Shown piece after piece: positions 36,073 through 62,113 of a stretch of 64,000 bases of DNA (positions are counted from its first letter, which is position 1; each line of letters opens with the position of its first letter). The stretch covers positions 25,620 to 89,619 of the forward strand of contig CAZXNM010000018.1 in NCBI GenBank assembly GCA_964641955.1, written 5' to 3'. The stretch comes from an uncultured Planctomycetota bacterium. GTDB lineage: Bacteria > Planctomycetota > SKW154 > DAOVDS01. The position numbers were made by a program, and so were the translations under genes. Under the pieces are notes generated by a model, which was not told the DNA's origin, did no database searches, and worked only from the letters and a program-made list of their open reading frames with translations.

Positions 36073-36103
36073 TGCGAAAATCAAAAAGGGAAGGGGGAAG
36101 AGA

Positions 36104-37159
36104 ATGAGAGGAACGGTTTTTCTGTTGTTTGTGATTGGCATTGCGGCTGCGGCTGTCTCGTGCAGCGCGGACGAGGCGGAGCAGAGGGCGGCCGAGGACA
36201 AGGCCGCGGATGAGAAGGGCGTCGGCCCGCTGTTTCCCGTGACGGTCGAGGGCAGGTACGGCTTTATCGACCAGAAGGGCAGGACCATAATCCAGCCGCA
36301 GTACGAGTGGGCTTCGGTCTTCCGGGGCGGGCTGGCTGCTGTGCAAATCGGCGGGAAGTACGGCTTTATCGACAAGACAGGCAAGGTCATCATAAACCCA
36401 GAGTTCGACAAGGCGGGCGACTTCTCGGAAGGCCTCGCAACCATCGAGAGGGATGACAAGTGGGGCTATATTGACAAGAACGGCAAAATAGCGGTCGAGC
36501 CGATTTACGCGTGGGCAATGGCGTTCTCGGAAGGGCTCGGGGCGGTGAATATCGGCGGCATCTGGGCGCAGAACGGCTTCGAGGGCGGCAAGTGGGGCTA
36601 CGTTGACCCGAAGGGCAAGATTGTCATAGACCCGCAGTACGACTTCGCGCTCGCGTTCTCGGAGGGCCTGGCAGCCGTGAGTTCGGACAGCAAGTGGGGC
36701 TACGTGGACAAGACGGGCGCCTTGAAAATAGAGTGCAAGCTCGACGGTCGGCCTGGCAGCTTCTCCGGTAATTTCGCTGTTTTCCAGACCGACGGGAAAT
36801 GGGGTTTCATAAACACGTCCGGCAACGTGGCAATCGAGGCGAAGTTCCAGCACGCAGACCGGTTCTCCGAAGAGCTTGCGCCCGTGAGGGCCGGGGACAA
36901 GTCCGGCTATATCGACACCGGTGGCAGCTTCGTCATCGAGCCGCAGGCTTACGGCTGGGCTGAGTGCTTTTCGGAAGGTCTTGCGCGCGTCTGGGTCGGG
37001 CAGAAGCACGGTTTCATAGACAAGACGGGCAAGCTTGTCATAGAAGCGCAGTACGACCGCGCGGACGACTTCCACAATGGCCTTGCGCTGGTCTGGGTCG
37101 GCGACAAGTACGGCTACATCAACAAAAAGGGCGAGTACGCCTGGCAGCCGACGAGGTAA
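36104..37159 (+). CDS. WG-repeat (KWG) lipoprotein, GC-rich paralog
   Basis: ATG 36104, lipobox-like AVS-C, and repeated KWGYIDKxG...FSEGLAxV units. Confidence 0.9.
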   Translation: MRGTVFLLFVIGIAAAAVSCSADEAEQRAAEDKAADEKGVGPLFPVTVEGRYGFIDQKGRTIIQPQYEWASVFRGGLAAVQIGGKYGFIDKTGKVIINPEFDKAGDFSEGLATIERDDKWGYIDKNGKIAVEPIYAWAMAFSEGLGAVNIGGIWAQNGFEGGKWGYVDPKGKIVIDPQYDFALAFSEGLAAVSSDSKWGYVDKTGALKIECKLDGRPGSFSGNFAVFQTDGKWGFINTSGNVAIEAKFQHADRFSEELAPVRAGDKSGYIDTGGSFVIEPQAYGWAECFSEGLARVWVGQKHGFIDKTGKLVIEAQYDRADDFHNGLALVWVGDKYGYINKKGEYAWQPTR

Positions 37160-40073: not shown

Positions 40074-40085
40074 CCGAAGGTTGCC

Positions 40086-50125: not shown

Positions 50126-51424
50126 TCAATCCATCTTCTTGAAGTTACCGCCGGTGGCTTTGGCGAGCGCTTCCATGAACTGGGCGCACTTGGCCTTATC
50201 TTCCTCGAAGCCGAAATCCTCGCCCTTGCCCACCATGAACGCGATGGTGTGGACCTTCCTGCTGCCCACAAGGTTCATGGCCTTGGTCTGGCCGAGAATC
50301 CAGTCGCGGTTGGCCTCGTCGCTGTTGGGCGGGTGCGTCGGCTCGCCGTCTGAGAGGAAGTAAATCGTGTCGATGTCCTCGTTCTGGAAGGCCTCCTTCA
50401 GGGCGCCGTAAGTGTATGTAACGCCATCGGCCTTGAGTTTCTTGATAAAGCCCTTAGCGCTGCTCTTGTTCCCGGCGGTTGCCTTGACGGGCTTCTTCTT
50501 CCAGGATTTGACCGACAGGTCGAAAGTGATTATGTTGAACTTGCACTTTTCGTCTATCTGCGTGTCGAGGACCTTGCAAAGCTCATCCTTGACAATGTCG
50601 AGCCGGCTCATTTTCTTCTTGGACTCTCCCCATTCCCCTTCGGTCTTCATGGAACCGGACGTATCGACTACGAATATCACTTTCTTGCTCTTGATTCGCC
50701 CGTAGATGGGACTGACCGCCACGGTCTTGGGCTCACCGATAATCGGCCTTGCGGTCTCGGGATTGTCATCATACCCACCGCCGCCTGCCGGCGGGGCCCA
50801 GGAGTCCCTCTTTTTCTTCCACCAGTTTTTCCAGTCCTCGGGCTCTTCGAGCCCGGTAGCGCCGGTCATCTTTTCGAGCACTTCGCCGATTTCATAGACG
50901 AGTCGGCCCTGCTCCTTCTGCACCTGCGCTATCAGCGCATCGACGAGCCTCGTGCTCGGGGTCATCGCGCCGAGCGCCTTCGCCACCGCAAGACGGACCT
51001 CCCATTTCTTGTCGCCGAGAATCTTGAGCAGCCCGTCAATCGAGAAGTCGTCTCCATACTCGCCGAGCACCTTGGCCATGACGGCGCGCAGCCGCCAGCT
51101 CTTCTCTTTCGTTATGTTTTCCGACATCCAGTGAACTATTTCCTGAGTGCGCATGCGGGAGAGGGCATCGTATGCAGCCTGCGTGGCGATATAGGAGGCA
51201 TCCTTCTCGAACGCAACAGCGAGGATGGCCTTGGCGGCCTCGACTGTCATCTGGCGGGAGACCTTATTTATTGCGGCTTTCTGATTGAGCGGGAAGTTCT
51301 TGGCATCTGCCCATTCCTTCTGGAATTCCTTGATGGCGTCGCTCTGGGCGAGACACAGCGGCACCGTCAGGAACACCAGTAGGAGAGCCGCGAGAATAAA
51401 ACGCAAATGTCCGGAAAACAGCAT
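50126..51424 (-). CDS. Secreted HEAT-repeat + VWA-domain protein
   Basis: SD AGGAGG, signal peptide, HEAT repeats, and MIDAS DTSGSM...T...FLSDG. Confidence 0.88.
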   Translation of the reverse strand: MLFSGHLRFILAALLLVFLTVPLCLAQSDAIKEFQKEWADAKNFPLNQKAAINKVSRQMTVEAAKAILAVAFEKDASYIATQAAYDALSRMRTQEIVHWMSENITKEKSWRLRAVMAKVLGEYGDDFSIDGLLKILGDKKWEVRLAVAKALGAMTPSTRLVDALIAQVQKEQGRLVYEIGEVLEKMTGATGLEEPEDWKNWWKKKRDSWAPPAGGGGYDDNPETARPIIGEPKTVAVSPIYGRIKSKKVIFVVDTSGSMKTEGEWGESKKKMSRLDIVKDELCKVLDTQIDEKCKFNIITFDLSVKSWKKKPVKATAGNKSSAKGFIKKLKADGVTYTYGALKEAFQNEDIDTIYFLSDGEPTHPPNSDEANRDWILGQTKAMNLVGSRKVHTIAFMVGKGEDFGFEEDKAKCAQFMEALAKATGGNFKKMD

Positions 51425-51463
51425 CTGTAATCCTCCTGTCCCGCGAGCAGGAACCCGGCTGCC

Positions 51464-53683
51464 TTACTTGCTGTTGCCGTCGGCCTTGAAGAAGAGCCGG
51501 TGCCTGAACTCGCCGTAGTTTCTCTTTGAGAGGTCTCGCAGGAAGTCCACGCTGGGTCCCACGGGCACGGGGTTGTTGGCTCCATCGGTGTGTTGAACCG
51601 TGTAGAAGCCTACTGCGTGGATGCGCGTTTTGCCCTGCAGGTTCTGGTCGGCAATAACTCGCACAAGCTTCGGGGGGTAGACATAACGCCCTTCGTTCGG
51701 CACGCCGTCGCTGATGATGACTAGGTCGTCCGGCTTGCTGCGCAGGACCGTTGTCAGGGCGTGGTAGAAATTGGTTTTTCTTTCTTGGGGCAGCAGCACC
51801 CTGTCGAGCCACTGCAGAGCCTTGGCTTTGTTGAGCTTGTCGGCGCGCGGGAGAGATGTCTGGGAAAAGCCCCGTATGTTCGAGCTGAAGAAGACTATGT
51901 TGAACTTGGTTTCCTTCGGGAGGCCGATTATGGACTGCTTGATTAGGTTTTTCGCCTCGTCCAGCTTGCCGTCGTTTCTCATGCTGCCCGATGCATCCAC
52001 GAGGTAAACAACCGAGTTTGTCCACAGCGGGATGTCGATAAACGATGCGGGCGCGCCCGGAATCGCCCCGGGGTCGGGATTTGTCTCGGGGTATGGCCCC
52101 ATCTTCTTGAACCAGGAACTCCAGTCGGAGCCTTTCACGTAGCGCTCGCCCGTAATCCGCCACAGAGCAGTCAGGACGGCGCCGCGCAGTCTCAGGTCTG
52201 TCTGGGTCTTGTGGCTCTTGTAAAGCTTAATCAGCGGTTCGACCGCCCTCACATCGGGATTCTCGGAAAGCGCCATGGCGGCGGCTTCCTCGACGAGCGG
52301 CTGGGCATCGTTGAGGAGGCGGATCAGCGGCATCACGCAGCTAAATGTTCCCGTCCTGCCGAGTGCCCGGAGCGCGGCTTCTCTTACGACCCACTGCCTG
52401 TCCTTGAGAGCCTTTAGCAGGACCTCCTCGGCGGCCGTGTCCTTAGTTGCGCCGAGCGCCATGCAGATAGCCACACGCACCTTTTCGTCCGGTTCCTTAA
52501 GCAACGCGGCCGCAAGCGGCTTGTAAGATACGGGCTTGTCCACGATGGCGAGTACTTCGGCGACCATCTTGCGCACGTTCGCTTGCCGCTTCTGAGAAGA
52601 CAGGACTTCGCTGACCAGCCAGTCGAGAGTCTCCTGCCGTTCTATCTGGGCAAGCGCGTCCGGTACGGTCTCGCGAATTTCCCCTTCTTCTGCTGCGTCA
52701 TCGTAGATGTAGAGCATTACGCCTGCAGCCTGCTTGCTGCCGTTTTCCGCAAGCGCAAACAGCGCCTCCCGCCGCACGGAAGTATCAACTTTCCTGCGTT
52801 CGCCTATCAGGATGCTCTTGAAGAAATTCAGGGTTTTTTCAATAGGCAGACTTGCCAGCTTGTGCAGAGCATCCACCTGGCCGTCAACGTTGCGGGCCTT
52901 GGCCGCCGAGAAGAAATCGTTCTCGAGCGTCCGCAGATTTGCCGCGGCAACCTTGACTTCTTTGTCGGGTTCCTGCTTCAGAGGTTCTTCGCCGGGGCCT
53001 TCGACGTGTGTGCCTTCACTGCCCGGTGCGGGTGGCGTTTCGGGAATTTCAGGTTTCTCCTCGACATCATGCTCCCTGGGCTTGTCTTTAACGATAGCTT
53101 CTGGTTTTTCTTGCCTGCCTTCGTCTACAAAGGATGGTAATTCAGGCGCCTTGGGTCTGTCAGGCACCTCTACCGGTTTCTCGCGCTCAGATTCTATCGG
53201 GAACAGCTCGGCCAAATGCTGCTTCTTCTTTTCCTCTTCATACTGCTCCGGACTTACGTATGTAGTCTTCACGAATGGCTGCTTCTCCTGGCTGTCGTCC
53301 GCAGCGGTAATATCAGGCTCGTCCGGTATATCGGTTGGCTCTTTTACGCCGGATTTGGACATGATAAGCACTATGACTATCAACGCTGCTGCGGCAATGC
53401 CGGCCGATATGGCTTTCCTGACCCAGTTGCGCGACATCACCGGTACCATGTAGGCCCCGGTGCCCTCCCTGTGCAGCCGGGCTTCCAGGCGTCTTACGAA
53501 CGAGGGCGAGGCTGCAAGGCGGGGTGCCTGCTTGAGCGCTTTCTTCGCATCCCGGAGATCCTTGAAGTACTGCGAACACTCCCGGCACGAACTTATGTGA
53601 TTGAGCAGGGACCGGGCCTCTTCCGGCTCAAGCTGTCCGTCCACAAGGTACGATAATTTTATCTTGTTCTCTTCGCAGCCCAT
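51464..53683 (-). CDS. Zinc-finger (zf-HC2/ZAS) anti-sigma-like membrane protein with HEAT repeats and a VWA domain
   Basis: YLVDGQL...HISSCREC, one TM helix, PE/K-rich linker, HEAT repeats, and MIDAS DASGSM...ISDG. Confidence 0.85.
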   Translation of the reverse strand: MGCEENKIKLSYLVDGQLEPEEARSLLNHISSCRECSQYFKDLRDAKKALKQAPRLAASPSFVRRLEARLHREGTGAYMVPVMSRNWVRKAISAGIAAAALIVIVLIMSKSGVKEPTDIPDEPDITAADDSQEKQPFVKTTYVSPEQYEEEKKKQHLAELFPIESEREKPVEVPDRPKAPELPSFVDEGRQEKPEAIVKDKPREHDVEEKPEIPETPPAPGSEGTHVEGPGEEPLKQEPDKEVKVAAANLRTLENDFFSAAKARNVDGQVDALHKLASLPIEKTLNFFKSILIGERRKVDTSVRREALFALAENGSKQAAGVMLYIYDDAAEEGEIRETVPDALAQIERQETLDWLVSEVLSSQKRQANVRKMVAEVLAIVDKPVSYKPLAAALLKEPDEKVRVAICMALGATKDTAAEEVLLKALKDRQWVVREAALRALGRTGTFSCVMPLIRLLNDAQPLVEEAAAMALSENPDVRAVEPLIKLYKSHKTQTDLRLRGAVLTALWRITGERYVKGSDWSSWFKKMGPYPETNPDPGAIPGAPASFIDIPLWTNSVVYLVDASGSMRNDGKLDEAKNLIKQSIIGLPKETKFNIVFFSSNIRGFSQTSLPRADKLNKAKALQWLDRVLLPQERKTNFYHALTTVLRSKPDDLVIISDGVPNEGRYVYPPKLVRVIADQNLQGKTRIHAVGFYTVQHTDGANNPVPVGPSVDFLRDLSKRNYGEFRHRLFFKADGNSK

Positions 53684-53794: not shown

Positions 53795-53929
53795 GTAAAT
53801 TTCCTCTCCTATTGCACAATTCAGCAACTTCTCAGAAATTTCAGGAAAAAATCTCGGAGTTCTTTGTCGATGGTCCGGGCGGGATGTTTAATGCTACCCC
53901 GGGATGCGTTTTTTTGCTACAATATCTTC

Positions 53930-54415
53930 ATGGAAACGGAAGGCGATGATTTCTTCATGGGCGAGGCTTTGAAGCTTGCGCGCCGCGCCGCGCAGGAGAA
54001 TGAGGTCCCGGTCGGGTGCGTGATTGTACACGGAGGCAGGATAATCGCGCGCGCACACAATCAGGTCGAAACGCTGCGGGACCCGACGGCGCATGCCGAG
54101 ATGATTGCCATAACCCAGGCGGCGGAGGCACTCGGGAACCACAGGTTCGCGGGAACATGCCTGTACGTTACCTGCGAGCCGTGCGCCATGTGTTCCGGCG
54201 CCATGCTGCTTGCGAGAATCGAAAGAGTAGTATACGGCGCTTCGGAGCCCAAGACGGGTTGCGCGGGGTCGCTAATGGACTTGCTGCGAGATGGGCGGTT
54301 TAACCACCGCTGCGAGGTCACCGGCGGCGTTATGGCGCAGGAGGCAGCGGAGCTTATGAAGCAGTTTTTCGAAGACATGAGGAAGAAGAAGGGTTTAAAA
54401 AACGTCGAAAGCTGA
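53930..54415 (+). CDS. tadA: tRNA adenosine(34) deaminase
   Basis: EVPVGCVIV, DPTAHAEM and EPCAMC. Start assigned to ATG 53930. Confidence 0.95.
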   Translation: METEGDDFFMGEALKLARRAAQENEVPVGCVIVHGGRIIARAHNQVETLRDPTAHAEMIAITQAAEALGNHRFAGTCLYVTCEPCAMCSGAMLLARIERVVYGASEPKTGCAGSLMDLLRDGRFNHRCEVTGGVMAQEAAELMKQFFEDMRKKKGLKNVES

Positions 54416-54431
54416 TAGAATTGCTTGGATG

Positions 54432-54516
<85 letters not shown>

Positions 54517-54719
54517 TTTTGTAACCCGCGTGAATGCTGGCTTTCAGCGCGGTTGCCCGAGTTCGGGTTGGAGTGGCTTTGCAACTCCTCAACGGGGATT
54601 TCTGTCGAAACCTTGTCGGAATCGGGCAGGGACTCAACCGTGCCATGCTGCCTTTCGGTGTTACCTCAGCCTGCATTATGAGCCCGAGTAAAGTGTGAAG
54701 ACTGGAACTCATCTCATAT

Positions 54720-55094
54720 TCAATTCGATGGGACGACTGGGTTTTCCGGTATGTAGACGACTTCTCCCGTCTTGAGCCTGTAGCATACACCGAGTCTCTT
54801 TCCCTCGCCTCCTATCCGGTCGGTGGTCATCCTGTATTTTTCCAGCTTGATTCCTCTCTTGTTGATAATCTCCATATCCGGCTTGCCGGGATTCTTGACC
54901 AGAGTTACATCCTCTCTCTCTGCCAGGAATTCCGGCAGGCTGAAATAGGTGACCAGCGCCAGAAGCAGCGCAACGGCGAAGACCATGCCTGCATCAAAGA
55001 GATTGGCCATGCCCGCGAGAGGGTCGTCTTCAGCCGGAGACAATATTTTCCTGAACCGCCTTGCCTGCCTGTATCCTGCCGGCGTTTCCGTCAT
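54720..55094 (-). CDS. DUF2149-family protein (HmuV-like)
   Basis: DDPLAGMANLFDAGMVFAVALL, KNPGKP.MEII, and G.G.RLG..YRL.TGEVVYIPE. Confidence 0.88.
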   Translation of the reverse strand: MTETPAGYRQARRFRKILSPAEDDPLAGMANLFDAGMVFAVALLLALVTYFSLPEFLAEREDVTLVKNPGKPDMEIINKRGIKLEKYRMTTDRIGGEGKRLGVCYRLKTGEVVYIPENPVVPSN

Positions 55095-55728
55095 CCTGTA
55101 TTTCTCCTCCCTTGTTCCGGGTGGACCAGTTCATGACGAATTCAATATCCGCCATGTCCTGCGCATACCACCTGCGGCGCGCGAGATTCATTCCGTAACA
55201 GAGGCCGCCGACGGCAAGCCCCAGAACGGTCGTGCTGAAGGCAACCACGAGGTTCATCGCCATTTCATGGATGTTTCCCGATGTCAGCCCTATCAGAGCG
55301 GGCCCCAGGGGAATGAGGGTTCCCATCAGGCCCAGCATGGGCCCCAACCGGGTGCCAAAAGACATTCGGGAGAGCTTCCCTGCAATCTCGATTTCCAAAT
55401 CGGCCATCAGTTTGTGCATCAAGATCAAGTCGCCGTGCAGTTGCTGCGCCATATACGAGAACTTTCCCAGGAAGCCCGGCAACGCAGGCTTGCCGAAGAA
55501 CTCCAGGTTGAAACCGGCGGGGTTTTTCCGGGAGCTTCCGGAGCTTTTCGCGGAAAGGTTTTTGTACAGCCGCCTCCATTCTTTCCGCCCCTTGCGACGG
55601 TCGAGATACTCTCGAACGAAACCGCCGGCTTCCATGAGCGACCATCCCAGCATGAACAGCAAGGTGAGAATGACAGGCACCAGCAGCGCCGTAGAGACGA
55701 CATAGAGAATTCTAATAAGGGACTCCAA
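55030..55728 (-). CDS. MotA/TolQ/ExbB proton-channel-family protein (HmuU-like)
   Basis: Likely TTG start 55728 (SD GAGGGG). LGPMLGLMGTLIPLGPAL and VVAFSTTVLGL. Confidence 0.9.
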   Translation of the reverse strand: MESLIRILYVVSTALLVPVILTLLFMLGWSLMEAGGFVREYLDRRKGRKEWRRLYKNLSAKSSGSSRKNPAGFNLEFFGKPALPGFLGKFSYMAQQLHGDLILMHKLMADLEIEIAGKLSRMSFGTRLGPMLGLMGTLIPLGPALIGLTSGNIHEMAMNLVVAFSTTVLGLAVGGLCYGMNLARRRWYAQDMADIEFVMNWSTRNKGGEIQDDGNAGRIQAGKAVQENIVSG

Positions 55729-55742: not shown

Positions 55743-58700
55743 TTATTTTGCCTCGAAACGAGGAGCGCCTTTCCGAAACCGGTAGCCCGCATATATGACA
55801 AGGATGACCACAAGGCCTATCAGCATCTCGGTCAGGGGCCAAGTCCGTGCGACCGACGAAGTTTCTTTTACGGGCTCCATCTTCTTGCCTTCCACAGTCT
55901 CTTCTTCAGGCTCCTCGACCGGCGGCGCGGGCGCAGCTTCTTCCGGCCTGGATGATGCCATCTCGGCGGCCGTCTTCTGGCGGTACTGCTCAAGGAGCGC
56001 CCGGGTTACCTTTCCCGTCGTGCTGTCGGGGCCCGGCGCCGAGAGCGTCCGCGCGAGGAAGAAATCGAGCTTCTCGTTGACCTCGCCGGGCTCGCTGTGG
56101 CCGTGGCGGACGACCGACTCTGCATACGCAGTCGCTATTTCCAGAAGAGTCGCCTCGTCGGGACGCCAGTACTCCTTCCTGATTGCCTCCAGCAGGTTTT
56201 CCGTCAGCCCCTGGAAAGCATACGGATTCTTGGCTTCGAACCACTCCCGGATATTCAGGTTCTTCTTGTCGCGCAGGTAGACATTGACAATCTCCTCCCA
56301 GATGTCGGCGGAGACGCTGTCTTCCCGGTTGATTTCCCATCCCAGCGTGCAGAATACTCCGCCAGCCATCTGCTGGGCACCGGCGTAACCCTCCTCCATC
56401 ATACCCTCAATCCACTTGCGATTGAAGAGCGTCGCGCGGATATCCTTGCGCATGGCGTCTTCCGCCCGGACGACTTCTTCCTCACCGGGATTGCGAAGGT
56501 CCGAAATAAAATAATCCGGCTCCTTGCCCGTCACTTCCTTGATAACCAGACACAGGTTTCCGCCGTTGTACCATCCGCCCCTGTGCGGGCCGCCCCGGGT
56601 GACATTTTTCAGCACGACCCCGGTTCCCTGGAGGTGACGCCTGTATGCTTCGCGCGTCTTCTCGCCCCAGCATCCCTCGGTGTACGCGTAGTCCCGCTCT
56701 TCGAGATACACATCGACCAGCTCCAGGCGCGAGTCCCATTTGCCCGTCTCTTCGAGCAGAAGGAAGTGAGTATAGCTTACCAGTTCCGGTGCCATTGCGA
56801 AAATGCGGGCGCGGGACAACGTTTCCGCGCGCTCCTGCGACAGGCCGTCCACCTTGAGCTCTCGATAGACTCGCGTCCGGTTCTTGAAGAGATTGTTGTT
56901 CGGTTCGTCAAGCTCGGAGACCATTCGAATAGCCTTGTCCCACAGGCGCAGCCGGCCTTCGAGATAGTCAACGTAATAATCGTATGTCTCGACGAAAACA
57001 TCGATTCTCGGACGGCCCAACTCCTTTGAGGGAATAAGCGCAACATCCATCACCCGGTTGCTCGCGTCCCAGACTGGACGGACCCCAATCAGATAGAGAA
57101 TCTGCGACTCCAGAACGCCGTAATCCATAAGGGTGCTGCGGAAATTCAGGGAAAGGCCGATTTTCTCCGGATAGCACCCGTCGGTTTTGAGTTTCTCGGC
57201 AAGCAGTTGGTCCACGAGCTGCTTGCCAAGCTCCCATGAGGGCTTGCTGGGAATTTCTTCCGGGTTCATGATATACATGTTCCGGCCCGTGGGGAGCACG
57301 GCCGGGTTGCGTTCGGGCAGGTTTCCCGGACCCGGCGGCATGAACCGCCCGTTCAGCGCGACGAGGTAATTGTCGATTTCCATGTGCGTTCGGGCGAAGC
57401 CGTCGTGCAGGTGCTTGGCGGCGTCGAAACCTTCCTTGAGCTTCCTCGGCATCCCCTGCTCGCCTATCTTGCCTCCGACCGAGGCGATGGCTTCCCCCGG
57501 AGATTGATTCTGCTTGAGAACCTTTTCAATCACTTCCTGCGCCTTTTGCCGGAGATATTTCTTGCGGTCTCCCGGCAGGCGGTCATGTTCCGGCGGGACC
57601 GGGACCGTTTCATCCAACCCGTCCAGGAAATGTCCCCCCAGACAGGTCACGACATAAGGTGCCAGCAAGTCGTCGCGCGGAGGCTGCCCCATCACGTGAT
57701 AGTTCACGTTTATCTTCTCGTGGTAAATCTCGCTTAAATATCCGGCGATGCTCCTGATTTCCTCGGGTGTCAGTAACTGGTCCCTCTTCAAGTCAAGGCG
57801 CAGGTCCTGGTCCAGATGCGTTTCGCGCACCTGCTGCGTGATGGATGCCCGGAATTTTTCTTCGAGCGCACCTTCGGGCGTCCGGTCCCACTTGATGATA
57901 TCGGTCTGGAGGTTCAAGAGCTCGTCCGCCAGTTCCGCGTTCACGTCCGGCGAGACGAGATGGTCATCGAGGACGGCGCGCGTCTTGCGTCGCGCCGGCA
58001 GGGACCAGTTCAGCTCGCAAATCGGCCATACCCGGACGTTTGGCATATTCCCCATGAGGATGTCGGGCCAGTCCGCCCGGCGCAGGCCTATCGCCTTGCG
58101 GGGCAGGCAGTAGTCCATTATCAGGAACTCCCACACGACTAGGGCATCGGTCTTGAAGCCCTCCTCGATCCAGAAATTGGCCGCCAGCTCGTTGTGGCTG
58201 GGCTGGACGTTGTAGGGGTCCTCTCTCAGTCGCTTCAGGAGCGCCTCGCGGTTGTCTTGGTCCAGGGCGTCCTCGCCCTCCGGGAACTGCTTGGGCACGA
58301 GAATCACCTTGCTGCCGTCCAGGTCAATCTTGGGAATGACGAGGAACTGTTTCCCCCGGTCATCCTTCCAGACCATGAACTTGCCCGGTATCTCACCCCA
58401 CTCCTTGATTACGGCCTTTCTCTGCTCCTCGGGCACTTTCGCTTCGAACCACTTCCGGTACGTCTCCACGGGAAGCAGGACGGCTTTCCCGCTGCGGGCC
58501 AGCTTGTCCAGTTCGTCCGGCGCGTCGGACAGAATCTGCCGGCCGTGGTCTATCATCCAGTCAATCAGCTCGTCCTGGTCCTTCGGTATCTTGTTAACCA
58601 CATAGCCTTCCCGCTTCATCCGTTTAAGTAGATTAATGATGCTCTCGGCGTAAAGCGTGTCCTGCGTGCCTACCAGCATCTCCCCCTTGTCCGGAGGCCC

Positions 58701-59864
58701 GAGATACTGGATGGCGAGTTTCTTGTCCCGGTTGTGCTTGCGGCGAAGGTTGCACCACGCCGCCGCCCGGGCGATGAAGTGTTCCATGCGGTCCGGAATG
58801 GGAACCACCTGCGAGAAGAAATCCCGGCTGCTGACGGTCGGACCTGCGACTGCATGCGGCTCGATAATGCCACGGCTTTCCGATATCATCTGGAAGCCCC
58901 TGACCCTGCTTCGGGGGCGCTTCGTATCCCCGGCTTCCGGGTGCAGCCACTCGTCAATCGTCTCGCCCATCAGGGACATCGGCTGAATCACGGGCGCGCC
59001 GAGGGAGATGTAGAACTCGACCTTTCCGCTCTTGCCGGTGTGCCTCATAAGCAAATCGGGCTTGAACTCCCTCATGTATTTCTCGTAAGTCTCACCGATT
59101 GTGTTTATGGCGGCTGCAAGCATTCCATGCTTCTCGAACGCACGTATCAGCATGTCCACGTATTCCGGGCGGTGAACGACATGACCCATGTTCGTCTCTA
59201 TGAGCGCCCGCGGGGCGTCGATGTCCCTGCCCTGCTTGCGGGCCCACTGCAGGAACTCCTCCACGCTCGCGAAAGTCCCCTCGTGGTCGGGGTGATAGAA
59301 CCACCGGCTCTCGTATTTCTCCGGGGGCTCGACCTTCCCGGGCCGTCCCAGGTACGTCACGGCCAGGTATACCAGGTATCGCCGCATGTTTTCCTGCGAT
59401 ATGGCCTGGAACCAGGTGTACTTTTCAATCTCGGCATCTTTCTCGACCGTCCCGCTTTCAATCAGGCCCGGAAAGCTCTTCTGGAACTGGCCGGCACCCC
59501 GGCCGCCCACCACGATGCGCATATTCGGATGCTGTTTATTCGCGGAAACAAGGAACTTTTCAAGAAGCTCCTTGTCTTCCTTGCTGTCCAAACCTCTTAT
59601 TCCCCCTAGGATAATGAGCCGGCAGGAGGACAGGTCCACTGCTTTTCGCTTGATGTCCTCGTTCGTGAAGGATACGACCTGCACGCCCAGCGATTCCTTG
59701 AGCTCCTTGAAGCGGTCTGCCAAGAATCCCCCCATGCCGTAGATGCAGATAACTTCCGGCTTCTCCGGCTCCTGCCCGCGGACCTTTCCGGGCAATCCGA
59801 CGCTGGCAATCAGGACCGCAAGACTTATCAGGACGGCGATTGTCAGGCTCTTTTTCTTTACCAT
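55743..59864 (-). CDS. CobN/Mg-chelatase-family protein with a signal peptide and C-terminal TM anchor (HmuS-like), divergent
   Basis: ATG 59864, hydrophobic N-terminus, VLPTGRN, LGRPRIDV, KWIEGMMEEGYAGA, WFEAKNPYA, and a C-terminal TM helix. Confidence 0.88.
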   Translation of the reverse strand: MVKKKSLTIAVLISLAVLIASVGLPGKVRGQEPEKPEVICIYGMGGFLADRFKELKESLGVQVVSFTNEDIKRKAVDLSSCRLIILGGIRGLDSKEDKELLEKFLVSANKQHPNMRIVVGGRGAGQFQKSFPGLIESGTVEKDAEIEKYTWFQAISQENMRRYLVYLAVTYLGRPGKVEPPEKYESRWFYHPDHEGTFASVEEFLQWARKQGRDIDAPRALIETNMGHVVHRPEYVDMLIRAFEKHGMLAAAINTIGETYEKYMREFKPDLLMRHTGKSGKVEFYISLGAPVIQPMSLMGETIDEWLHPEAGDTKRPRSRVRGFQMISESRGIIEPHAVAGPTVSSRDFFSQVVPIPDRMEHFIARAAAWCNLRRKHNRDKKLAIQYLGPPDKGEMLVGTQDTLYAESIINLLKRMKREGYVVNKIPKDQDELIDWMIDHGRQILSDAPDELDKLARSGKAVLLPVETYRKWFEAKVPEEQRKAVIKEWGEIPGKFMVWKDDRGKQFLVIPKIDLDGSKVILVPKQFPEGEDALDQDNREALLKRLREDPYNVQPSHNELAANFWIEEGFKTDALVVWEFLIMDYCLPRKAIGLRRADWPDILMGNMPNVRVWPICELNWSLPARRKTRAVLDDHLVSPDVNAELADELLNLQTDIIKWDRTPEGALEEKFRASITQQVRETHLDQDLRLDLKRDQLLTPEEIRSIAGYLSEIYHEKINVNYHVMGQPPRDDLLAPYVVTCLGGHFLDGLDETVPVPPEHDRLPGDRKKYLRQKAQEVIEKVLKQNQSPGEAIASVGGKIGEQGMPRKLKEGFDAAKHLHDGFARTHMEIDNYLVALNGRFMPPGPGNLPERNPAVLPTGRNMYIMNPEEIPSKPSWELGKQLVDQLLAEKLKTDGCYPEKIGLSLNFRSTLMDYGVLESQILYLIGVRPVWDASNRVMDVALIPSKELGRPRIDVFVETYDYYVDYLEGRLRLWDKAIRMVSELDEPNNNLFKNRTRVYRELKVDGLSQERAETLSRARIFAMAPELVSYTHFLLLEETGKWDSRLELVDVYLEERDYAYTEGCWGEKTREAYRRHLQGTGVVLKNVTRGGPHRGGWYNGGNLCLVIKEVTGKEPDYFISDLRNPGEEEVVRAEDAMRKDIRATLFNRKWIEGMMEEGYAGAQQMAGGVFCTLGWEINREDSVSADIWEEIVNVYLRDKKNLNIREWFEAKNPYAFQGLTENLLEAIRKEYWRPDEATLLEIATAYAESVVRHGHSEPGEVNEKLDFFLARTLSAPGPDSTTGKVTRALLEQYRQKTAAEMASSRPEEAAPAPPVEEPEEETVEGKKMEPVKETSSVARTWPLTEMLIGLVVILVIYAGYRFRKGAPRFEAK

Positions 59865-59923
59865 GTCTGATTTCTCCCATGTCAGAAACGGCACGTCTGC
59901 CGAGTGTTTCTCCGTATTCCTTA

Positions 59924-62113
59924 TTAGAATTCGGCTGTCACGCTCAGCTTGAGGCTGAACGGGTCGCCGGGGCTGACCCTTATCTTGTGGCGGGCGCCCG
60001 TGTAGTATTTCTCGTTCGTGAGGTTGTCGATGTTCACACGGAATTTCCACGTGGCGTCCTTGCGCTTCAGCGGATACTCGAAAAACAGGCCCGCCACGCC
60101 GTATGCGGGAAGCTCGTATCCCGGCAGCGTCCCGTCGGTGTCCAGGTTCTTTGCGCCTTTGAACTTGAGGCTCGTTCCCATCTTCAGGTTGGCGAGCCTG
60201 CCGTAAGGAACCTTGTACGCCACCTGCGCTGCAATGTCATACCTCGGCTCTTGCCAGTAGCCTTCGTTGTTGAGTTTGCACGAAGGCACCAAAGTGCACG
60301 ACAACCGGGCGGACCAGTCTTTGGTTACCTGCCCGGCCGCGGTGAATTCGTAGCCGCGCGACCCCGTCTTGCTCGTAAGCTCTACGTAGGTACGGGTGGC
60401 GTCCCACTCGGGAAGGTTGTCCTGCTTCAGATAATAGGCCGAGACGGTGCACATGAGTTTCTTCGCGGGCTTCACCTTGAAGCCGCACTCGTTGAGTCTC
60501 GCCGACCATCCCTCGGTGATTCTGTCTCCATTGATATCGACCATGCCAAGGTTCGGCCCGTTGGTGTCCATGTACGCCGCGTAAACCGCAAAGGCGGGGT
60601 CGAAGAGATACGTGATGCCGTATCTGGTGGAGTTGTCACGCCCTCTGACGCCATCATCGTAGTGCTCGTCGTAGCGTCCGCCCGCAAGAAAGCGCCACGA
60701 TTTCCAGGAGAACTGGTCCTGCAGGAATATACCCGTGCGCTTGACGATAGACTCGCTCGGTGAACTTATCCTTCCACCAGGCTGGAGGGCGGGAAAGTCC
60801 AGAATCTCCGGGTCGGTCACATCGTACCAGTCGGCTGTCGTCAACCAGGCTCCAACACCTCTACGGTCCCTGATATCCAGGACCTCCACGCCCCCGACAA
60901 GCTTGTTGTCTAACTCCTTCCCGGATTTGTTATGAAGCATGAAGCTCACGTTGTATCCCTTACGCGTGGATACGTTGTCCCCGACGAATATACCCATGGG
61001 AGAGGTGCCCGTATTGCGTATCTCGTTAAAGAAATTGATATCCATCTTCCATCCCGCAGCGCTGTAGGCCAGCCCGCGGGTGACATACTGATTCCTGCCG
61101 CGGAACCACGATACTCCGGCATTGACGGTCAGAATTTCGTTGGGCTTCCATCTTATTCTGGATTGCCCGAGCTGTCCCGCGTAATAGGTGCGCGTGTCCT
61201 CGTTGCCGTAGTAGGTGTCATAGTCGCTTATCAGCTTGCCCTCTATCAGGGGGACACCGAAGTAAGAGGCTATATCCTTCCCCAGGCAGGAATAGTCGAA
61301 GAGTATCTCCAGACCTTCGGCGGGCAGCAGCTTGATGCTCGGAGCCACGATGTAGCCGACATCCGGCTTGATTTCACTCGGCAGGTAATGCGGCCGCTCC
61401 GTGTCCCTGGCCACGTTCAGGCGGAAAAGTACCCCTTTGGATACCGGTATGTTGTAATCTGCGTGAACACGGCGGGAATCATCTCCTTCATCCAGCCCCA
61501 GCAGCCCCACCGCGCTGAAAGTCGTCTTCAAAGACTGCTTCTCGAATGGCTCCTTCGTTACGATATTAATGCCGCCCCCGAGGCCGGCCGAGTTGTCACT
61601 GGAAAGAAACTGACCCTGGACCGCTGCAGCCGAGCCCTTGAAATACTCGATACGCTCGACTATCGCCGAGTCCAGAAACATGTTCATGTTCTTGGGAAGC
61701 GCGAACCCGTTGATTGTGGTCTCCGTGTCCCCGAATCCGCGAACCTTCGCGGCGGGCCCCCATCGTAACCCGAGAAACGGCGCTTCCGTGTAATCCACTC
61801 CCGATACCAGTTGCCAGGCATCCGCGAACTGCGTAACACCCAGCTCATGCAGCATCTGCCTGCCCAGCACTTCATACGAGAGGGGCAGCTCGATGGGCGG
61901 AGTATCGGTCAGCGTCAAACTCCTCGCCGGCGGTATCTCTTCGTCTTTTTCTCCCTTGACAACGACTTCGGGCAGCTCGACCTCCTTTTTCGGCTCATCT
62001 TTCTTGACTTTTTCCGTCGTCCCCGTCTGGGTGGATTTGCCTTCATCATCTTGGGCCAGGCCGGTTGAAGGTGTCAGGACTGCCAGAAACACGGCGATGC
62101 GCAGCCACTTCAT
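59924..62113 (-). CDS. TonB-dependent outer-membrane receptor
   Basis: ATG 62113 (SD AGGGG), signal peptide, TonB-box-like ELPEVVVKG, plug motifs RGF and ERIEYFKG, and C-terminal NIDNLTNEKYY...SVTAEF. Confidence 0.92.
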   Translation of the reverse strand: MKWLRIAVFLAVLTPSTGLAQDDEGKSTQTGTTEKVKKDEPKKEVELPEVVVKGEKDEEIPPARSLTLTDTPPIELPLSYEVLGRQMLHELGVTQFADAWQLVSGVDYTEAPFLGLRWGPAAKVRGFGDTETTINGFALPKNMNMFLDSAIVERIEYFKGSAAAVQGQFLSSDNSAGLGGGINIVTKEPFEKQSLKTTFSAVGLLGLDEGDDSRRVHADYNIPVSKGVLFRLNVARDTERPHYLPSEIKPDVGYIVAPSIKLLPAEGLEILFDYSCLGKDIASYFGVPLIEGKLISDYDTYYGNEDTRTYYAGQLGQSRIRWKPNEILTVNAGVSWFRGRNQYVTRGLAYSAAGWKMDINFFNEIRNTGTSPMGIFVGDNVSTRKGYNVSFMLHNKSGKELDNKLVGGVEVLDIRDRRGVGAWLTTADWYDVTDPEILDFPALQPGGRISSPSESIVKRTGIFLQDQFSWKSWRFLAGGRYDEHYDDGVRGRDNSTRYGITYLFDPAFAVYAAYMDTNGPNLGMVDINGDRITEGWSARLNECGFKVKPAKKLMCTVSAYYLKQDNLPEWDATRTYVELTSKTGSRGYEFTAAGQVTKDWSARLSCTLVPSCKLNNEGYWQEPRYDIAAQVAYKVPYGRLANLKMGTSLKFKGAKNLDTDGTLPGYELPAYGVAGLFFEYPLKRKDATWKFRVNIDNLTNEKYYTGARHKIRVSPGDPFSLKLSVTAEF

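What the first reader, a model, noticed from the sequence alone, without database searches (positions are those of the whole stretch)
55743..59864. Exported CobN-like protein has lost the conserved HxGxHG histidine motif
Seen in sequence: GFKTDALVVWEFLIMDYCLPRK (about nt 58100-58165). Established knowledge, from my recall of family alignments: CobN, ChlH and HmuS read approximately GFKADA(L/I)(I/V)H(F/V)G(T/K)HG(S/N)LE(F/W)xP(R/G)K here. The flanks align without gaps, and both histidines are replaced (by V and L). The usual SGxFRD after GRPRIDV is also changed (GRPRIDVFVETYDYYVD), while LPTGRN and the C-terminal WIEGMM..GYAGA are retained. The other frames do not restore the motif, so this is not a frameshift artefact. 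Inference: a non-canonical member that may be a tetrapyrrole-binding or shuttling protein, or may act on a different metal or macrocycle, rather than a standard chelatase or heme dechelatase.
Basis: partly seen in the sequence, partly recalled or inferred. Interest (0 to 1): 0.7.

Follow-up and report, generated by a model that had tools for sequence, protein, structure and literature searches.

The report
Catalytically dead exported CobN-like protein
This is a large exported relative of the tetrapyrrole metal enzymes CobN, ChlH and HmuS that has lost every residue known to carry out their metal chemistry, yet it stays strongly conserved inside an outer-membrane uptake gene cassette, so the scaffold must have a non-catalytic or rewired role.

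Summary
ORF 55743-59864 (-) is a full-length CobN/Mg-chelatase superfamily protein (Pfam E 3e-216; AF2 pLDDT 89; best fold match HmuS, TM 0.83).

- **Residues lost:** both His of HxGxHG (V577, L581), the partner Glu (HmuS E577 / ChlH E660, now W620), the second catalytic His motif (LSLDHxxEF, now GGWYN), the predicted propionate-binding residues, and 5 of 6 cleft acidic residues.
- **Not an artefact:** nine orthologues (60-67% identity) share the new motifs. The remodelled positions are more conserved than the rest of the protein.
- **Phylogeny:** the clade lies inside a wider His-less group. That group is sister to a planctomycete clade that keeps the motif.
- **Wider pattern:** H538 loss recurs in at least four other lineages, contradicting its published "strict conservation".
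- **Context:** a TonB-dependent receptor, the CobN-like gene, an ExbB-like gene and a DUF2149 gene. This is the order of P. aeruginosa PA1922-1925 and of hmuR/S/U/V.

Best reading: a non-catalytic, membrane-tethered periplasmic ligand-handling module coupled to the ExbB-like/DUF2149 stator. A rewired enzyme is not excluded, because a clade-specific His (H1033) sits near the old Na2 site. I class it as a new variant of a known kind, of moderate interest.

The parts
59924..62113 (-). TonB-dependent outer-membrane receptor. It is the first gene of the cassette and has a signal peptide and a TonB-box-like PEVVVKG.
   Evidence: Pfam Plug domain E 1.9e-9. NCBIfam TonB-siderophore subfamily E 2e-33, below cutoff. 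Best PDB matches are the enantio-pyochelin receptor, CntO, FoxA and FhuA. Start ATG 62113 (MKWLRIAVFLAV...) and the TonB box were read.
55743..59864 (-). CobN/ChlH/HmuS-superfamily protein of 1373 aa. It is periplasmic, membrane-tethered and lacks the catalytic residues.
   Evidence: PF02514 covers residues 151-1239, E 3.3e-216. It scores below all NCBIfam CobN/BchH equivalog cutoffs. Best PDB sequence hit is HmuS 9d26, E 1e-106. The AF2 model of residues 151-1280 has pLDDT 89.3 and pTM 0.90. Foldseek gives HmuS TM 0.83, CobN 0.79 and ChlH 0.75.
59772..59864 (-). N-terminal signal peptide or membrane anchor (residues 1-31, MVKKKSLTIAVLISLAVLIASVGLPGKVRGQ).
   Evidence: Read from the sequence. 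Comparable hydrophobic N-termini are present in all exported relatives and absent from ChlH/BchH. Whether it is cleaved was not tested.
58119..58136 (-). Degenerate HxGxHG motif. VWEFLI (residues 577-582) replaces HFGTHG, so HmuS H534 becomes V and H538 becomes L.
   Evidence: Gap-free alignments. It sits in a confidently modelled strand-loop-helix, with block pLDDT 89-95. V577, W578, F580, L581, M583, D584 and Y585 are invariant in the nine subclade-A sequences.
58005..58007 (-). W620 replaces the catalytic Glu (HmuS E577, ChlH E660), which is the carboxylate partner of the lost His.
   Evidence: NxGES/NPSEA becomes ELNWS. Loss of H538 and of this Glu is coupled across the superfamily: 27 of 28 sequences lacking H538 also lack it.
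57132..57146 (-). NFRST (residues 907-911) replaces HmuS W1013-S1014-S1015-E-F. The predicted propionate-binding Ser becomes Phe, and a new invariant Arg909 appears.
   Evidence: Conservation is 0.92 in subclade A.
56973..56990 (-). ETYDYY (residues 959-964) replaces QTSGQL / SGxFRD after GRPRIDV. HmuS S1067 becomes Y961.
   Evidence: All six residues are invariant in subclade A. Subclade B has E(T/P/S)KH(Y/H)Y.
56748..56771 (-). THFLLLEE (residues 1032-1039), containing the clade-specific conserved His1033. It aligns to HmuS I1141-E1146, next to the Na2 ligands Q1142 and E1146.
   Evidence: His is present in 15 of 16 His-less (A+B) sequences, and Tyr, Ile or another residue occupies the position in all other groups.
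56553..56600 (-). TRGGPHRGGWYNGGNL (residues 1089-1104) replaces QSNTWGALSLDHVYEFMGG. HmuS D1208, H1209 and E1212 (ChlH H1174 and D1177) are lost, and W1202 becomes R.
   Evidence: Conservation is 0.88 in subclade A.
55782..55838 (-). C-terminal transmembrane helix (residues 1343-1361). It is preceded by a Pro/Glu/Ala-rich linker with a conserved GxK(L/M)EP and followed by RFRKG.
   Evidence: the same architecture is found in all exported relatives, including HmuS-like P0028. In locus L001 two paralogues that are about 40% identical overall share this segment almost nucleotide for nucleotide.
55030..55728 (-). MotA/TolQ/ExbB-family proton-channel protein (232 aa, three TM helices). The start is TTG at 55728, 8 nt after AGGAGG and 12 nt after the CobN-like stop codon.
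   Evidence: Pfam PF01618. Start and SD. Orthologues follow the CobN-like gene in every related locus.
54720..55094 (-). DUF2149 protein: one TM helix with a membrane-embedded Asp (NLFDAGMVF) plus a small periplasmic domain. It is ExbD/TolR-like in architecture and is the last gene of the cassette.
   Evidence: Pfam PF09919, E 1.2e-29. Sequence. HmuV and PA1925 are DUF2149 proteins (PMC11681262, PMC9431628). The resemblance to ExbD is an inference from the architecture.

Best explanation
The gene encodes a periplasmic, membrane-tethered member of the CobN/ChlH/HmuS superfamily. It keeps the complete six-domain fold but has lost the whole set of residues that perform metal insertion or removal in its characterised relatives.

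It is the central gene of a four-gene cassette: TonB-dependent receptor, CobN-like protein, ExbB-like proton channel, DUF2149 (ExbD-like). Measured against the window's own genes, it is also the best-conserved gene of that cassette.

**Proposed mechanism.**
1. It acts as a non-catalytic ligand-handling module, not as a (de)chelatase.
2. Cargo brought into the periplasm by the receptor is captured in the former active-site cleft. That cleft has been re-lined from a His/Glu/Asp, cation-attracting pocket into a neutral, aromatic one (Trp, Phe, Tyr x3, Leu, plus Arg909 and Asp962).
3. The proton-driven ExbB-like/DUF2149 stator acts through the protein's C-terminal transmembrane helix and drives the open/close cycle. 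In His-bearing relatives that cycle is presumed to power (de)metalation. Here it would only capture and release the ligand, passing it to an inner-membrane transporter or, in some genomes, to a catalytic paralogue.

**Shown:** the residue losses, their clade-wide conservation, the intact fold, the export signals and the cassette.

**Inferred:** that a ligand is still bound, that the stator's client is the CobN-like protein, and the direction of hand-over.
For: 1. **Catalytic residues gone.** H534 becomes V, H538 becomes L, E577 becomes W, D1208/H1209 become G or a gap, and E1212 becomes N. H538A abolishes HmuS activity (PMC12583661). H621, E660 and H1174 are essential in ChlH (PMC13297055). 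Five of the six acidic cleft residues of HmuS are lost.
2. **Not decay.**
   - Nine orthologues at 60-67% identity share the new motifs.
   - Remodelled positions have mean pairwise identity 0.845, against 0.70 for the body (block permutation p about 0.01).
   - In the NJ tree a long stem leads to the clade, followed by shallow within-clade divergence.
3. **Fold intact.** pLDDT is 89.3 and pTM 0.90. TM is 0.83 to HmuS.
4. **Part of the binding face kept.** LPTGRN and GRPRIDV are retained, and residues 851-1000 are the most conserved stretch (0.79-0.89).
5. **Cassette conserved.**
   - It is present in every subclade-A locus whose contig extends past the gene, with or without the same receptor type.
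   - Against the window, CobN-like is 61-67% identical, ExbB-like 39-44%, DUF2149 32-47% and the TBDR 21-40%.
6. **The stator goes with the CobN-like protein, not the receptor.** Sister-clade and subclade-B loci keep ExbB-like and DUF2149 but have no TBDR.
7. **Shared anchor.** In L001 a His-less and a His-bearing paralogue flank a single ExbB-like/DUF2149 pair and share a gene-converted C-terminal TM anchor.
Against: - No ligand, binding or coupling has been demonstrated, and model coordinates could not be inspected. The hydrophobic replacements might simply fill and lock the cleft, making it a purely structural scaffold rather than a new pocket. High conservation fits both readings.
- The residues predicted to bind porphyrin propionates are also replaced, so what the ligand would be is open.
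- The receptor partner differs between the two halves of the clade. That argues against a tight cargo-specific partnership.
- A clade-specific conserved His (H1033) and several conserved Asp, Glu and Tyr residues leave room for a relocated active site.
- The receptor has an ordinary TonB-box-like motif, so the cassette probably still needs a conventional TonB encoded elsewhere.
Confidence: 0.5

Rival explanations
1. Rewired enzyme. The clade still catalyses a (de)chelation or related reaction, but with a relocated or re-typed active site built from H1033, E1038, D584, E959, D962 and the Tyr cluster. It would act on a different substrate, for example a ferric or other metal chelate delivered by a siderophore-type receptor rather than a porphyrin.
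For: - H1033 is conserved in 15 of 16 His-less sequences and absent elsewhere. It aligns next to the HmuS Na2 ligands inside the cleft.
- Subclade B has additional clade-specific His residues (HDH, WHTLGW).
- The remodelled positions are highly conserved.
- New invariant carboxylates and tyrosines (D584, E959, D962, Y961, Y963, Y964) are the kind of ligands used for hard metal ions. This last point is my inference.
- The window's receptor is closest to siderophore or metallophore receptors.
Against: - Five of the six acidic residues that give the HmuS cleft its cation-attracting patch are lost. The Na1 site is replaced by Leu/Trp, which looks like packing rather than ligation.
- E579 is not invariant: it is G or D in some orthologues.
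- No geometry could be checked.
- The receptor type is not constant in the clade.
Confidence: 0.25
2. Regulatory or accessory pseudoenzyme partner of a catalytic paralogue. The His-less protein has no ligand-handling role of its own. Instead it pairs with, or competes against, a His-bearing CobN-like paralogue for the same ExbB-like/DUF2149 stator, tuning or scaffolding the active enzyme.
For: In L001 the His-less gene (P0004) and a His-bearing paralogue (P0016) sit in one locus, each behind its own receptor. A single ExbB-like/DUF2149 pair lies between them, and their C-terminal TM anchors are nearly identical at the nucleotide level.
Against: - No second CobN-like gene lies within the stretches examined around the His-less gene: the 64-kb window, up to 10 kb on either side in L002 and L003, the 8 kb flanks of L040, and the 12-kb contig L043.
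- The His-less gene always has its own complete cassette.
- Whole genomes were not available, so distant paralogues could not be checked.
Confidence: 0.15
3. Decaying relic or assembly artefact. On this view it is a chelatase gene that has lost function and is drifting, or the motif was scrambled by sequencing error.
For: All catalytic residues are missing. One orthologue (L043) is split into two ORFs in a long-read assembly.
Against: - The ORF is intact at 1373 aa.
- Nine orthologues from independent assemblies have the same new motifs, and the remodelled sites are more conserved than average.
- The fold is predicted with confidence.
- The operon partners are conserved.
- No alternative frame restores the motif.
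Confidence: 0.03
4. Ordinary cobaltochelatase subunit CobN of aerobic cobalamin synthesis, as the source annotations of several homologues state.
For: The Pfam CobN-Mg_chel match. JGI and NCBI name the relatives 'cobaltochelatase CobN'.
Against: - Scores are far below every NCBIfam CobN equivalog cutoff, for example 561 against 1248 bits.
- The protein is exported and membrane-anchored.
- The catalytic residues are absent.
- No cobS/cobT or other cob genes, and no cobalamin riboswitch, occur in the window.
Confidence: 0.01

Closest known systems
HmuS heme dechelatase (Bacteroides thetaiotaomicron, PDB 9D26/9P4S; P. gingivalis hmuYRSTUV operon)
   Same: - It is the best sequence hit (E 1e-106) and the best structural hit (TM 0.83).
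- Both are exported and membrane-anchored, with a C-terminal TM helix in HmuS-like P0028.
- The operon logic is the same: TBDR (HmuR), CobN-like (HmuS), MotA/ExbB (HmuU), DUF2149 (HmuV) (PMC11681262).
   Different: - Identity is only about 24-26%.
- It lacks the HFG(T/A)HG motif with the essential H538, and it lacks E577.
- It lacks the LSLDHxxEFMGG motif (H1209, E1212).
- It lacks the predicted propionate binders, the Met-rich insertion and a conserved His254 equivalent.
- There is no hmuY or hmuT gene in the cassette.
P. aeruginosa Zur-regulated PA1922-PA1925 operon (TBDR, CobN-like PA1923, ExbB/D-family PA1924, DUF2149 PA1925)
   Same: The four-gene order and composition are identical (PMC4542158, PMC9431628). 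That system is also biochemically uncharacterised, and it is linked to metal (Zn/Co) limitation rather than to heme.
   Different: No Zur-like or Fur-like box was found upstream of the window's receptor, although that test was weak.
Planctomycete 'HTCHS' sister clade of exported CobN-like proteins (e.g. Singulisphaera acidiphila DSM 18658, Pirellulaceae SH501; uncharacterised)
   Same: - These are the closest relatives outside the His-less group (37-48% identity).
- They share the N-terminal signal and the C-terminal anchor.
- ExbB-like and DUF2149 genes lie downstream in the same way.
   Different: - The sister clade keeps HFGTHG and the partner Glu (NLGES) and has a conserved HTCHS motif at the HmuS His254 position.
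- It also lacks H1209, which is Tyr.
- Its upstream gene is a DUF1559 / N-methyl pseudopilin-like protein rather than a TBDR.
ChlH/BchH (Mg-chelatase) and CobN (aerobic cobaltochelatase)
   Same: They belong to the same Pfam family and share the overall fold (TM 0.75-0.79). The LPTGRN, GRPRIDV and W(I/Y)EGM..GY.G motifs are retained.
   Different: - Those enzymes are cytoplasmic, partnered with AAA+ subunits, and have H621, E660 and H1174 (ChlH numbering) intact.
- ChlH/BchH also carry the N-terminal PF11965 domain.
- None of these features holds here.
B. fragilis BtuS1/BtuS2 (CobN-like proteins needed to use heme iron)
   Same: They are exported CobN-like proteins linked to TonB-dependent uptake (PMC6460266, title and abstract only).
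   Different: They are genetically implicated in releasing iron from heme, which implies they are active. Their sequences were not compared here.

Membership tests
CobN/Mg-chelatase superfamily (Pfam PF02514) | Full-length match to the family profile above the gathering score | tested here: met
   721 bits against a cutoff of 24.5. Residues 151-1239 match profile positions 3-1089 of 1090.
CobN/Mg-chelatase superfamily (Pfam PF02514) | Multi-domain 'body' fold of ChlH, CobN and HmuS | tested here: met
   AF2 pLDDT 89.3 and pTM 0.90. Foldseek TMq is 0.83 for HmuS, 0.79 for CobN and 0.75 for ChlH.
CobN/Mg-chelatase superfamily (Pfam PF02514) | Second His of HxGxHG, described as strictly conserved superfamily-wide (PMC12583661) | tested here: not met
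   It is L581 here. The 'strict' conservation itself does not hold: 28 of the 177 aligned relatives that have all three motif columns lack this His.
HmuS heme dechelatase family (sensu Nath et al. 2025) | HFG(T/A)HG motif with catalytic His538 and its Glu577 partner | tested here: not met
   VWEFLI replaces the motif, and E577 is W620.
HmuS heme dechelatase family (sensu Nath et al. 2025) | LSLDHxxEFMGG motif (Asp1208, His1209, Glu1212) | tested here: not met
   The aligned query segment is PHRGGWYN-GGN.
HmuS heme dechelatase family (sensu Nath et al. 2025) | Site-1 heme ligand His254 | tested here: not met
   In the MAFFT and hmmalign alignments the column is Gly in all nine subclade-A sequences, query included. 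phmmer alone pairs the query's nearby His, which the other clade members lack, with His254.
HmuS heme dechelatase family (sensu Nath et al. 2025) | Site-1 heme ligand Met79 in the head domain | not testable with these tools
   The head domain (residues 1-330) finds no PDB sequence match. No reliable alignment to HmuS residue 79 could be made.
HmuS heme dechelatase family (sensu Nath et al. 2025) | Methionine-rich insertion | tested here: not met
   HmuS residues of about 710-933 correspond to only about 94 query residues (734-828), and these contain a single Met.
HmuS heme dechelatase family (sensu Nath et al. 2025) | Operon with a TonB-dependent receptor, a MotA/ExbB-family protein and a DUF2149 protein | tested here: met
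   compared with PMC11681262. No hmuY-like or hmuT-like genes are present.
HmuS heme dechelatase family (sensu Nath et al. 2025) | NADH-dependent conversion of heme to protoporphyrin IX and Fe(II) | not testable with these tools
   This needs a biochemical assay.
Aerobic cobaltochelatase CobN | Score above the NCBIfam CobN equivalog cutoffs | tested here: not met
   The best score is 560.8 bits against a cutoff of 1248. All nine models fall below cutoff.
Aerobic cobaltochelatase CobN | Cytoplasmic enzyme working with CobS/CobT and encoded among cob genes | tested here: not met
   The protein has a signal sequence and a TM anchor. No cob, AAA+ or VWA chelatase partners were recognised next to it, and no cobalamin riboswitch was found. 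Only the 64-kb window was checked.
Mg-chelatase ChlH/BchH | N-terminal PF11965 (DUF3479) domain | tested here: not met
   It is absent from the query and present in the BchH/ChlH hits P0030-P0040.
Mg-chelatase ChlH/BchH | Essential catalytic residues H621, E660 and H1174 (PMC13297055) | tested here: not met
   They are L581, W620 and G/gap respectively.
PA1922-PA1925-type metal-limitation cassette | Gene order TBDR, CobN-like, ExbB/D-family, DUF2149 | tested here: met
   compared with PMC4542158 and PMC9431628.
PA1922-PA1925-type metal-limitation cassette | Zur (zinc) regulation | tested here: inconclusive
   No match to proteobacterial Zur or Fur consensus boxes was found upstream of the receptor in the window or in L001-L003. 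The planctomycete operator sequences are unknown.
Pseudoenzyme (catalytically disabled homologue kept by selection) | Loss of the residues essential for catalysis in active relatives | tested here: met
   together with the mutagenesis reported in PMC12583661 and PMC13297055.
Pseudoenzyme (catalytically disabled homologue kept by selection) | Retention under purifying selection | tested here: met
   Nine orthologues, with remodelled sites at 0.845 identity against 0.70 for the body. The tree shows a long stem followed by a shallow crown.
Pseudoenzyme (catalytically disabled homologue kept by selection) | Demonstrated absence of the ancestral activity | not testable with these tools
   This needs a biochemical assay.

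The most novel reading that the evidence does not exclude
In the exported branch of the superfamily, the CobN scaffold may be primarily a proton-motive-force-driven mechanical device. On this reading the ExbB-like/DUF2149 stator engages the protein's C-terminal transmembrane helix and drives its domain motions, replacing the AAA+ motor of the cytoplasmic chelatases. Metal chemistry would then be an optional add-on. The His-less clades would reveal this second, chemistry-independent function: energised capture, extraction or transfer of receptor cargo across the periplasm, a new kind of client for ExbB/ExbD-type motors besides TonB, TolA and flagellar or gliding machinery.
Probability: 0.15. 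Interest if true: 0.8.

Novelty: new variant of a known kind. Interest (0 to 1): 0.55.

Why it matters
The CobN/ChlH/HmuS superfamily is currently understood only as (de)chelatases. The 2025 HmuS study reports the second motif His as strictly conserved across the superfamily and essential for activity.

This work finds a strongly conserved clade that has discarded that His, its Glu partner, the second catalytic His and the acidic cleft. Even so, the clade keeps the fold, the membrane anchor and the receptor/ExbB-like/DUF2149 cassette. At least four further lineages have lost the His independently.

Together these results indicate that the scaffold has a selectable role apart from the known chemistry. 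That gives a natural 'separation-of-function' variant for asking two questions:
- What do the ExbB-like/DUF2149 partners do in Hmu-type and PA1922-1925-type systems?
- What do the many unannotatable 'CobN' paralogues in bacteria and archaea do?

It also shows that automatic 'cobaltochelatase CobN' annotations for these proteins are wrong.

Tried and rejected
- **Frameshift or compensated-frameshift origin.** All six frames around nt 58060-58200 were translated, and none encodes an HxGxHG-like peptide.
- **Riboswitch control.** Rfam at gathering thresholds on the window, L001, L002 and L003 found only a tRNA. There is no cobalamin riboswitch or other riboswitch.
- **Fur/Zur operators.** Consensus scans upstream of the receptors found nothing convincing. 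This is a weak test, because planctomycete operators are unknown.
- **Head domain against HmuS site 1.** Residues 1-330 gave no significant PDB sequence match, so Met79 could not be mapped.
- **131-aa ORF 54395-54790 (-) as an 'hmuV-like' fifth gene.** Rejected. It has no Pfam hit and overlaps tRNA-Ser on the opposite strand.
- **A second CobN-like paralogue in the window.** The 1348-aa ORF 18823-22869 has no Pfam hit. tblastn of the CobN-like protein finds only itself in the window.
- **'The receptor is unconserved'.** I first inferred this from 21-23% identity to the window's TBDR. I corrected it after finding that type-1 loci share a 64-68% identical receptor. The window and L010 carry a different receptor type.
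- **Expression evidence.** Only DNA runs hold the sequence (sediment, marsh and an unspecified metagenome). No RNA runs were found.
- **Enlarging the clade from metagenome contigs.** The scan returned only two loci, one of them in subclade A.
- **Cleft geometry.** The structure tool returns no coordinates, so cavity volume and possible new metal sites could not be examined.

Full report
**1. The observation**

The long ORF 55743-60050 (-) contains an ATG at 59864 preceded by GGAG. The product is 1373 aa.

A phmmer search of the PDB aligns this stretch without gaps to HmuS (9d26): HGFKADALIHFGTHGSLEFTPRK. HmuS H534 therefore corresponds to V577 and H538 to L581. M. tuberculosis CobN (7c6o) and Synechocystis ChlH (6ytn) keep both His. 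GRPRIDVFVETYDYYVD replaces GRPRIDVVVQTSGQLRD. LPTGRN and WIEGMM..GYAGA are retained. No other reading frame restores the motif.

**2. The loss is more extensive than reported**

The same alignments show several further replacements.

| Residue in relatives | Role (source) | Query |
|---|---|---|
| HmuS E577 / ChlH E660 | Carboxylate partner of the His | W620 |
| HmuS D1208, H1209, E1212 (ChlH H1174, D1177) | Second catalytic motif LSLDHxxEFMGG | Within RGGWYN; the MAFFT alignment shows a two-residue deletion |
| S1014, S1067, Q1198, S1199, W1202 | Predicted porphyrin propionate binders (Nath et al.) | F, Y, gap, N, R |
| E577, E1143, E1146, D1208, E1212, E1281 | Acidic patch of the cleft | 5 of 6 lost |

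H538A abolishes heme dechelation in HmuS, and the authors describe H538 as strictly conserved across the superfamily (PMC12583661). In ChlH, H621 (the same His), E660 and H1174 are the essential catalytic residues (PMC13297055). All three are gone here.

**3. What the protein is**

- Pfam CobN-Mg_chel matches end to end (E 3.3e-216).
- Every NCBIfam CobN/BchH equivalog model scores far below its cutoff.
- An AlphaFold2 model of residues 151-1280, built on a 37-sequence alignment, is confident (mean pLDDT 89.3, pTM 0.90). The region around the former motif is also confident.
- Its best structural neighbours are HmuS (TM 0.83), CobN (0.79) and ChlH (0.75).
- The protein has an N-terminal signal-type sequence.
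- It also has a Pro/Glu-rich linker, a C-terminal TM helix (residues 1343-1361) and a basic tail. All exported relatives, including HmuS-like ones, share this architecture, and the cytoplasmic ChlH/BchH lack it.

**4. It is a conserved clade, not an accident**

A search of 5.8 billion proteins found nine orthologues at 60-67% identity from independent assemblies. I call these subclade A. They share the same new motifs:
- VVWEFLxMDY
- ELNWSLPARR
- NFRST
- ETYDYY
- GGP..GWYNGGNL

An exhaustive HMMER scan of 1.84 billion cluster representatives added a more divergent group, subclade B (36-49% identity). It has related but different replacements: (W/F)G(S/A)(F/L)..DLLLP, TFAxPA(K/R)R and E(T/P/S)KH(Y/H)Y.

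In a neighbour-joining tree, A+B form one group of 16 tips, with A nested inside B. This group is sister to a planctomycete clade that includes Singulisphaera acidiphila and Pirellulaceae. The sister clade keeps HFGTHG and the Glu but has Tyr for H1209. Subclade A sits on a long stem (about 0.37) and has a shallow crown (0.24). Root-to-tip distances are 0.73 for A and 0.82 for B, against 0.57 for the sister clade. This suggests a burst of change followed by constraint.

Within subclade A the remodelled cleft positions are more conserved (0.845 mean pairwise identity) than the body as a whole (0.70; block permutation p about 0.01). The most conserved stretch is domain V, residues 851-1000.

In the GTDB species representatives, only two genomes carry subclade A. 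The JGI metagenome scan added one more locus. The clade is therefore rare.

**5. Loss of the 'invariant' His recurs**

Among the 177 aligned relatives that have all three motif columns, 28 lack H538, and 27 of those also lack the partner Glu. All 149 sequences with H538 keep the Glu. In the tree the losses fall in at least five places:
- A+B
- P0067, P0068, P0090
- The P0076/82/96/100/117/123/163 group
- P0087
- P0128

The His-Glu dyad therefore behaves as one unit that is kept or discarded together. The published 'strict conservation' does not hold in the wider sequence space.

**6. Genomic context**

On the minus strand the cassette reads as follows.

| Coordinates | Gene | Notes |
|---|---|---|
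| 62113-59924 | TonB-dependent receptor | Plug domain; closest to siderophore or metallophore receptors; TonB-box-like PEVVVKG |
| 59864-55743 | CobN-like gene | 59-nt spacer after the receptor gene |
| 55728-55030 | ExbB/TolQ/MotA-family gene | TTG start 8 nt after AGGAGG |
| 55094-54720 | DUF2149 gene | One TM helix with an embedded Asp; ExbD-like in architecture |

The cassette ends at a convergent tRNA-Ser(CGA) at 54432-54516.

This is the gene order of the Zur-regulated P. aeruginosa PA1922-PA1925 operon (PMC4542158, PMC9431628). It is also the order of hmuR-S-(T)-U-V in P. gingivalis (PMC11681262). The same cassette is found in every subclade-A locus whose contig extends past the gene: L001, L002/L008/L040, L003/L004 and L043.

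Relative to the window, identities are:
- CobN-like protein: 61-67%
- ExbB-like protein: 39-44%
- DUF2149 protein: 32-47%
- Receptor: 21-40%

Type-1 loci share a different, mutually 64-68% identical receptor plus a secreted alpha/alpha-toroid protein. The window lacks that toroid protein.

The sister clade and subclade B keep ExbB-like and DUF2149 but have a DUF1559 pseudopilin-like gene instead of a receptor. The constant partnership is therefore CobN-like + ExbB-like + DUF2149.

In L001 a His-less and a His-bearing paralogue, about 40% identical overall, flank a single ExbB-like/DUF2149 pair. They share their last ~38 codons almost nucleotide for nucleotide, covering GxKLEP, the TM helix and RRKGSM. 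This looks like gene conversion of the anchor alone. It is what would be expected if that helix docks to the shared stator, which is my inference.

No riboswitch and no recognisable Fur or Zur box was found.

The organism is an uncultured planctomycete from a sediment metagenome. The nearest named SecA relatives are Planctomycetota MAGs (63% identity) and Candidatus Brocadiia (59%).

**7. How it most likely works**

Shown:
- The canonical metal chemistry cannot be carried out by the canonical residues.
- The fold, export signals, cassette and strong purifying selection are intact.

Inferred (confidence about 0.5):
- The protein is a non-catalytic, membrane-tethered periplasmic module that still uses the former active-site cleft, now neutral and aromatic, to hold receptor cargo.
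- Its conformational cycle is driven by the ExbB-like/DUF2149 stator through the C-terminal helix.
- The ligand is released to an inner-membrane transporter or to a catalytic paralogue.

Rivals:
- **Rewired enzyme (0.25).** It would use the clade-specific H1033, aligned next to the HmuS Na2 ligands, together with new Asp, Glu and Tyr residues, possibly on a non-porphyrin chelate.
- **Accessory or regulatory partner of a catalytic paralogue (0.15).** This is suggested by L001, but no second CobN-like gene lies in the stretches examined around the other His-less genes.
- **Relic or artefact (0.03) and genuine CobN (0.01).** The data argue against both.

I could not inspect model coordinates. Whether the hydrophobic replacements make a pocket or fill the cleft therefore remains open, and this is the most important missing test.

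**8. Comparison with known families, and novelty**

The protein is a member of the PF02514 superfamily by sequence and fold. It fails the defining features of each characterised family:
- **HmuS:** both motifs, His254 and the Met-rich insertion are missing.
- **CobN:** equivalog scores, cytoplasmic location and partner genes are not met.
- **ChlH/BchH:** the PF11965 domain and the catalytic triad are missing.

It works in the same kind of cassette as HmuS and PA1923. No paper found in the library describes His-less members. I rate it a new variant of a known kind.

Interest is moderate (0.55). The case is real, clean and conserved, and it contradicts a recent conservation claim. It also offers a natural separation-of-function variant. 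Against that, pseudoenzymes are common, the clade is rare and uncultured, and the mechanism is still inferred.

Noticed in passing
L001:8000-8119 and L001:15245-15364: Two CobN-like paralogues in one locus, His-less P0004 and His-bearing P0016, are about 40% identical overall. They nevertheless share their last ~38 codons (GxKLEP, TM helix, RRKGSM) with only three synonymous and a few non-synonymous differences. This looks like gene conversion confined to the membrane anchor. A single ExbB-like/DUF2149 pair lies between the two genes.
   Followed up: partly
Proteins P0067, P0068, P0090; P0076, P0082, P0096, P0100, P0117, P0123, P0163; P0087; P0128: At least four further lineages of the CobN superfamily have independently lost the 'strictly conserved' motif His, usually together with its Glu partner. 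P0067 keeps an HH..E second motif and sits in a CobN-like, TBDR, ExbB-like, DUF2149 cassette (L039). P0076 sits next to a flavodoxin gene and ABC exporter genes (L042).
   Followed up: partly
L005, L006, L007, L038 (and Singulisphaera acidiphila L026): The planctomycete sister clade has a conserved HTCHS motif at the position of the HmuS heme ligand His254, and Tyr in place of H1209. In L005 and L006 (and in the subclade-B loci L007 and L038) the cassette has a DUF1559 / N-methyl pseudopilin-like gene where other lineages have a TonB-dependent receptor. L026 was not annotated. This family is itself uncharacterised.
   Followed up: partly
L001:2-1072, L002:17185-18333, L003:6426-7556: A secreted alpha/alpha-toroid protein of about 380 aa accompanies the cassette in all type-1 subclade-A loci. 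It has a weak SQHop_cyclase_C / prenyltransferase-like hit and is 37-45% identical between loci. It has no homologue in the window.
   Followed up: partly
L003:7563-7790: A 75-aa ORF lies between the toroid protein gene and the receptor gene. By eye it looks like a small winged-helix, FeoC-like protein. It has no Pfam hit on record, and this reading is unverified.
   Followed up: no
window 18823-22869 (+): A 1348-aa ORF has no Pfam match at all (E <= 0.001).
   Followed up: no
window 6639-18697 (+): A same-strand run of genes comprises a multihaem cytochrome c, two radical-SAM proteins (one with a SPASM domain), a 779-aa protein with a spermidine-synthase-like domain, and four ORFs without Pfam hits. 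It may be a peptide-modification or polyamine-related cluster.
   Followed up: no
window 34001-37159: GC drops to 0.485, against about 0.58 elsewhere. The dip covers a dihydroorotate dehydrogenase gene and two tandem genes for WG-repeat (PF14903) proteins.
   Followed up: no
window 50126-53683 (-): Two adjacent HEAT-repeat + VWA proteins lie downstream of the cassette. The larger one has an N-terminal zf-HC2 anti-sigma-type domain. Their relation to the cassette is unknown. L003 has an ECF sigma / zf-HC2 anti-sigma pair upstream of its cassette.
   Followed up: no
window 53864-54516 (+): A TadA-like cytidine/adenosine deaminase gene is immediately followed by tRNA-Ser(CGA). The 131-aa ORF on the opposite strand (54395-54790) is spurious.
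   Followed up: yes
L043:6937-11107: The subclade-A orthologue in this long-read contig is called as two ORFs (1168 + 218 aa). This is probably a homopolymer frameshift in the assembly rather than a real pseudogene.
   Followed up: no
L038:10251-15185 versus window 37458-41378: The subclade-B locus L038 has SecA followed by a Kdo-transferase gene a few kb from its CobN-like gene. The same pair occurs in the window, hinting at conserved regional synteny between these planctomycete lineages.
   Followed up: no
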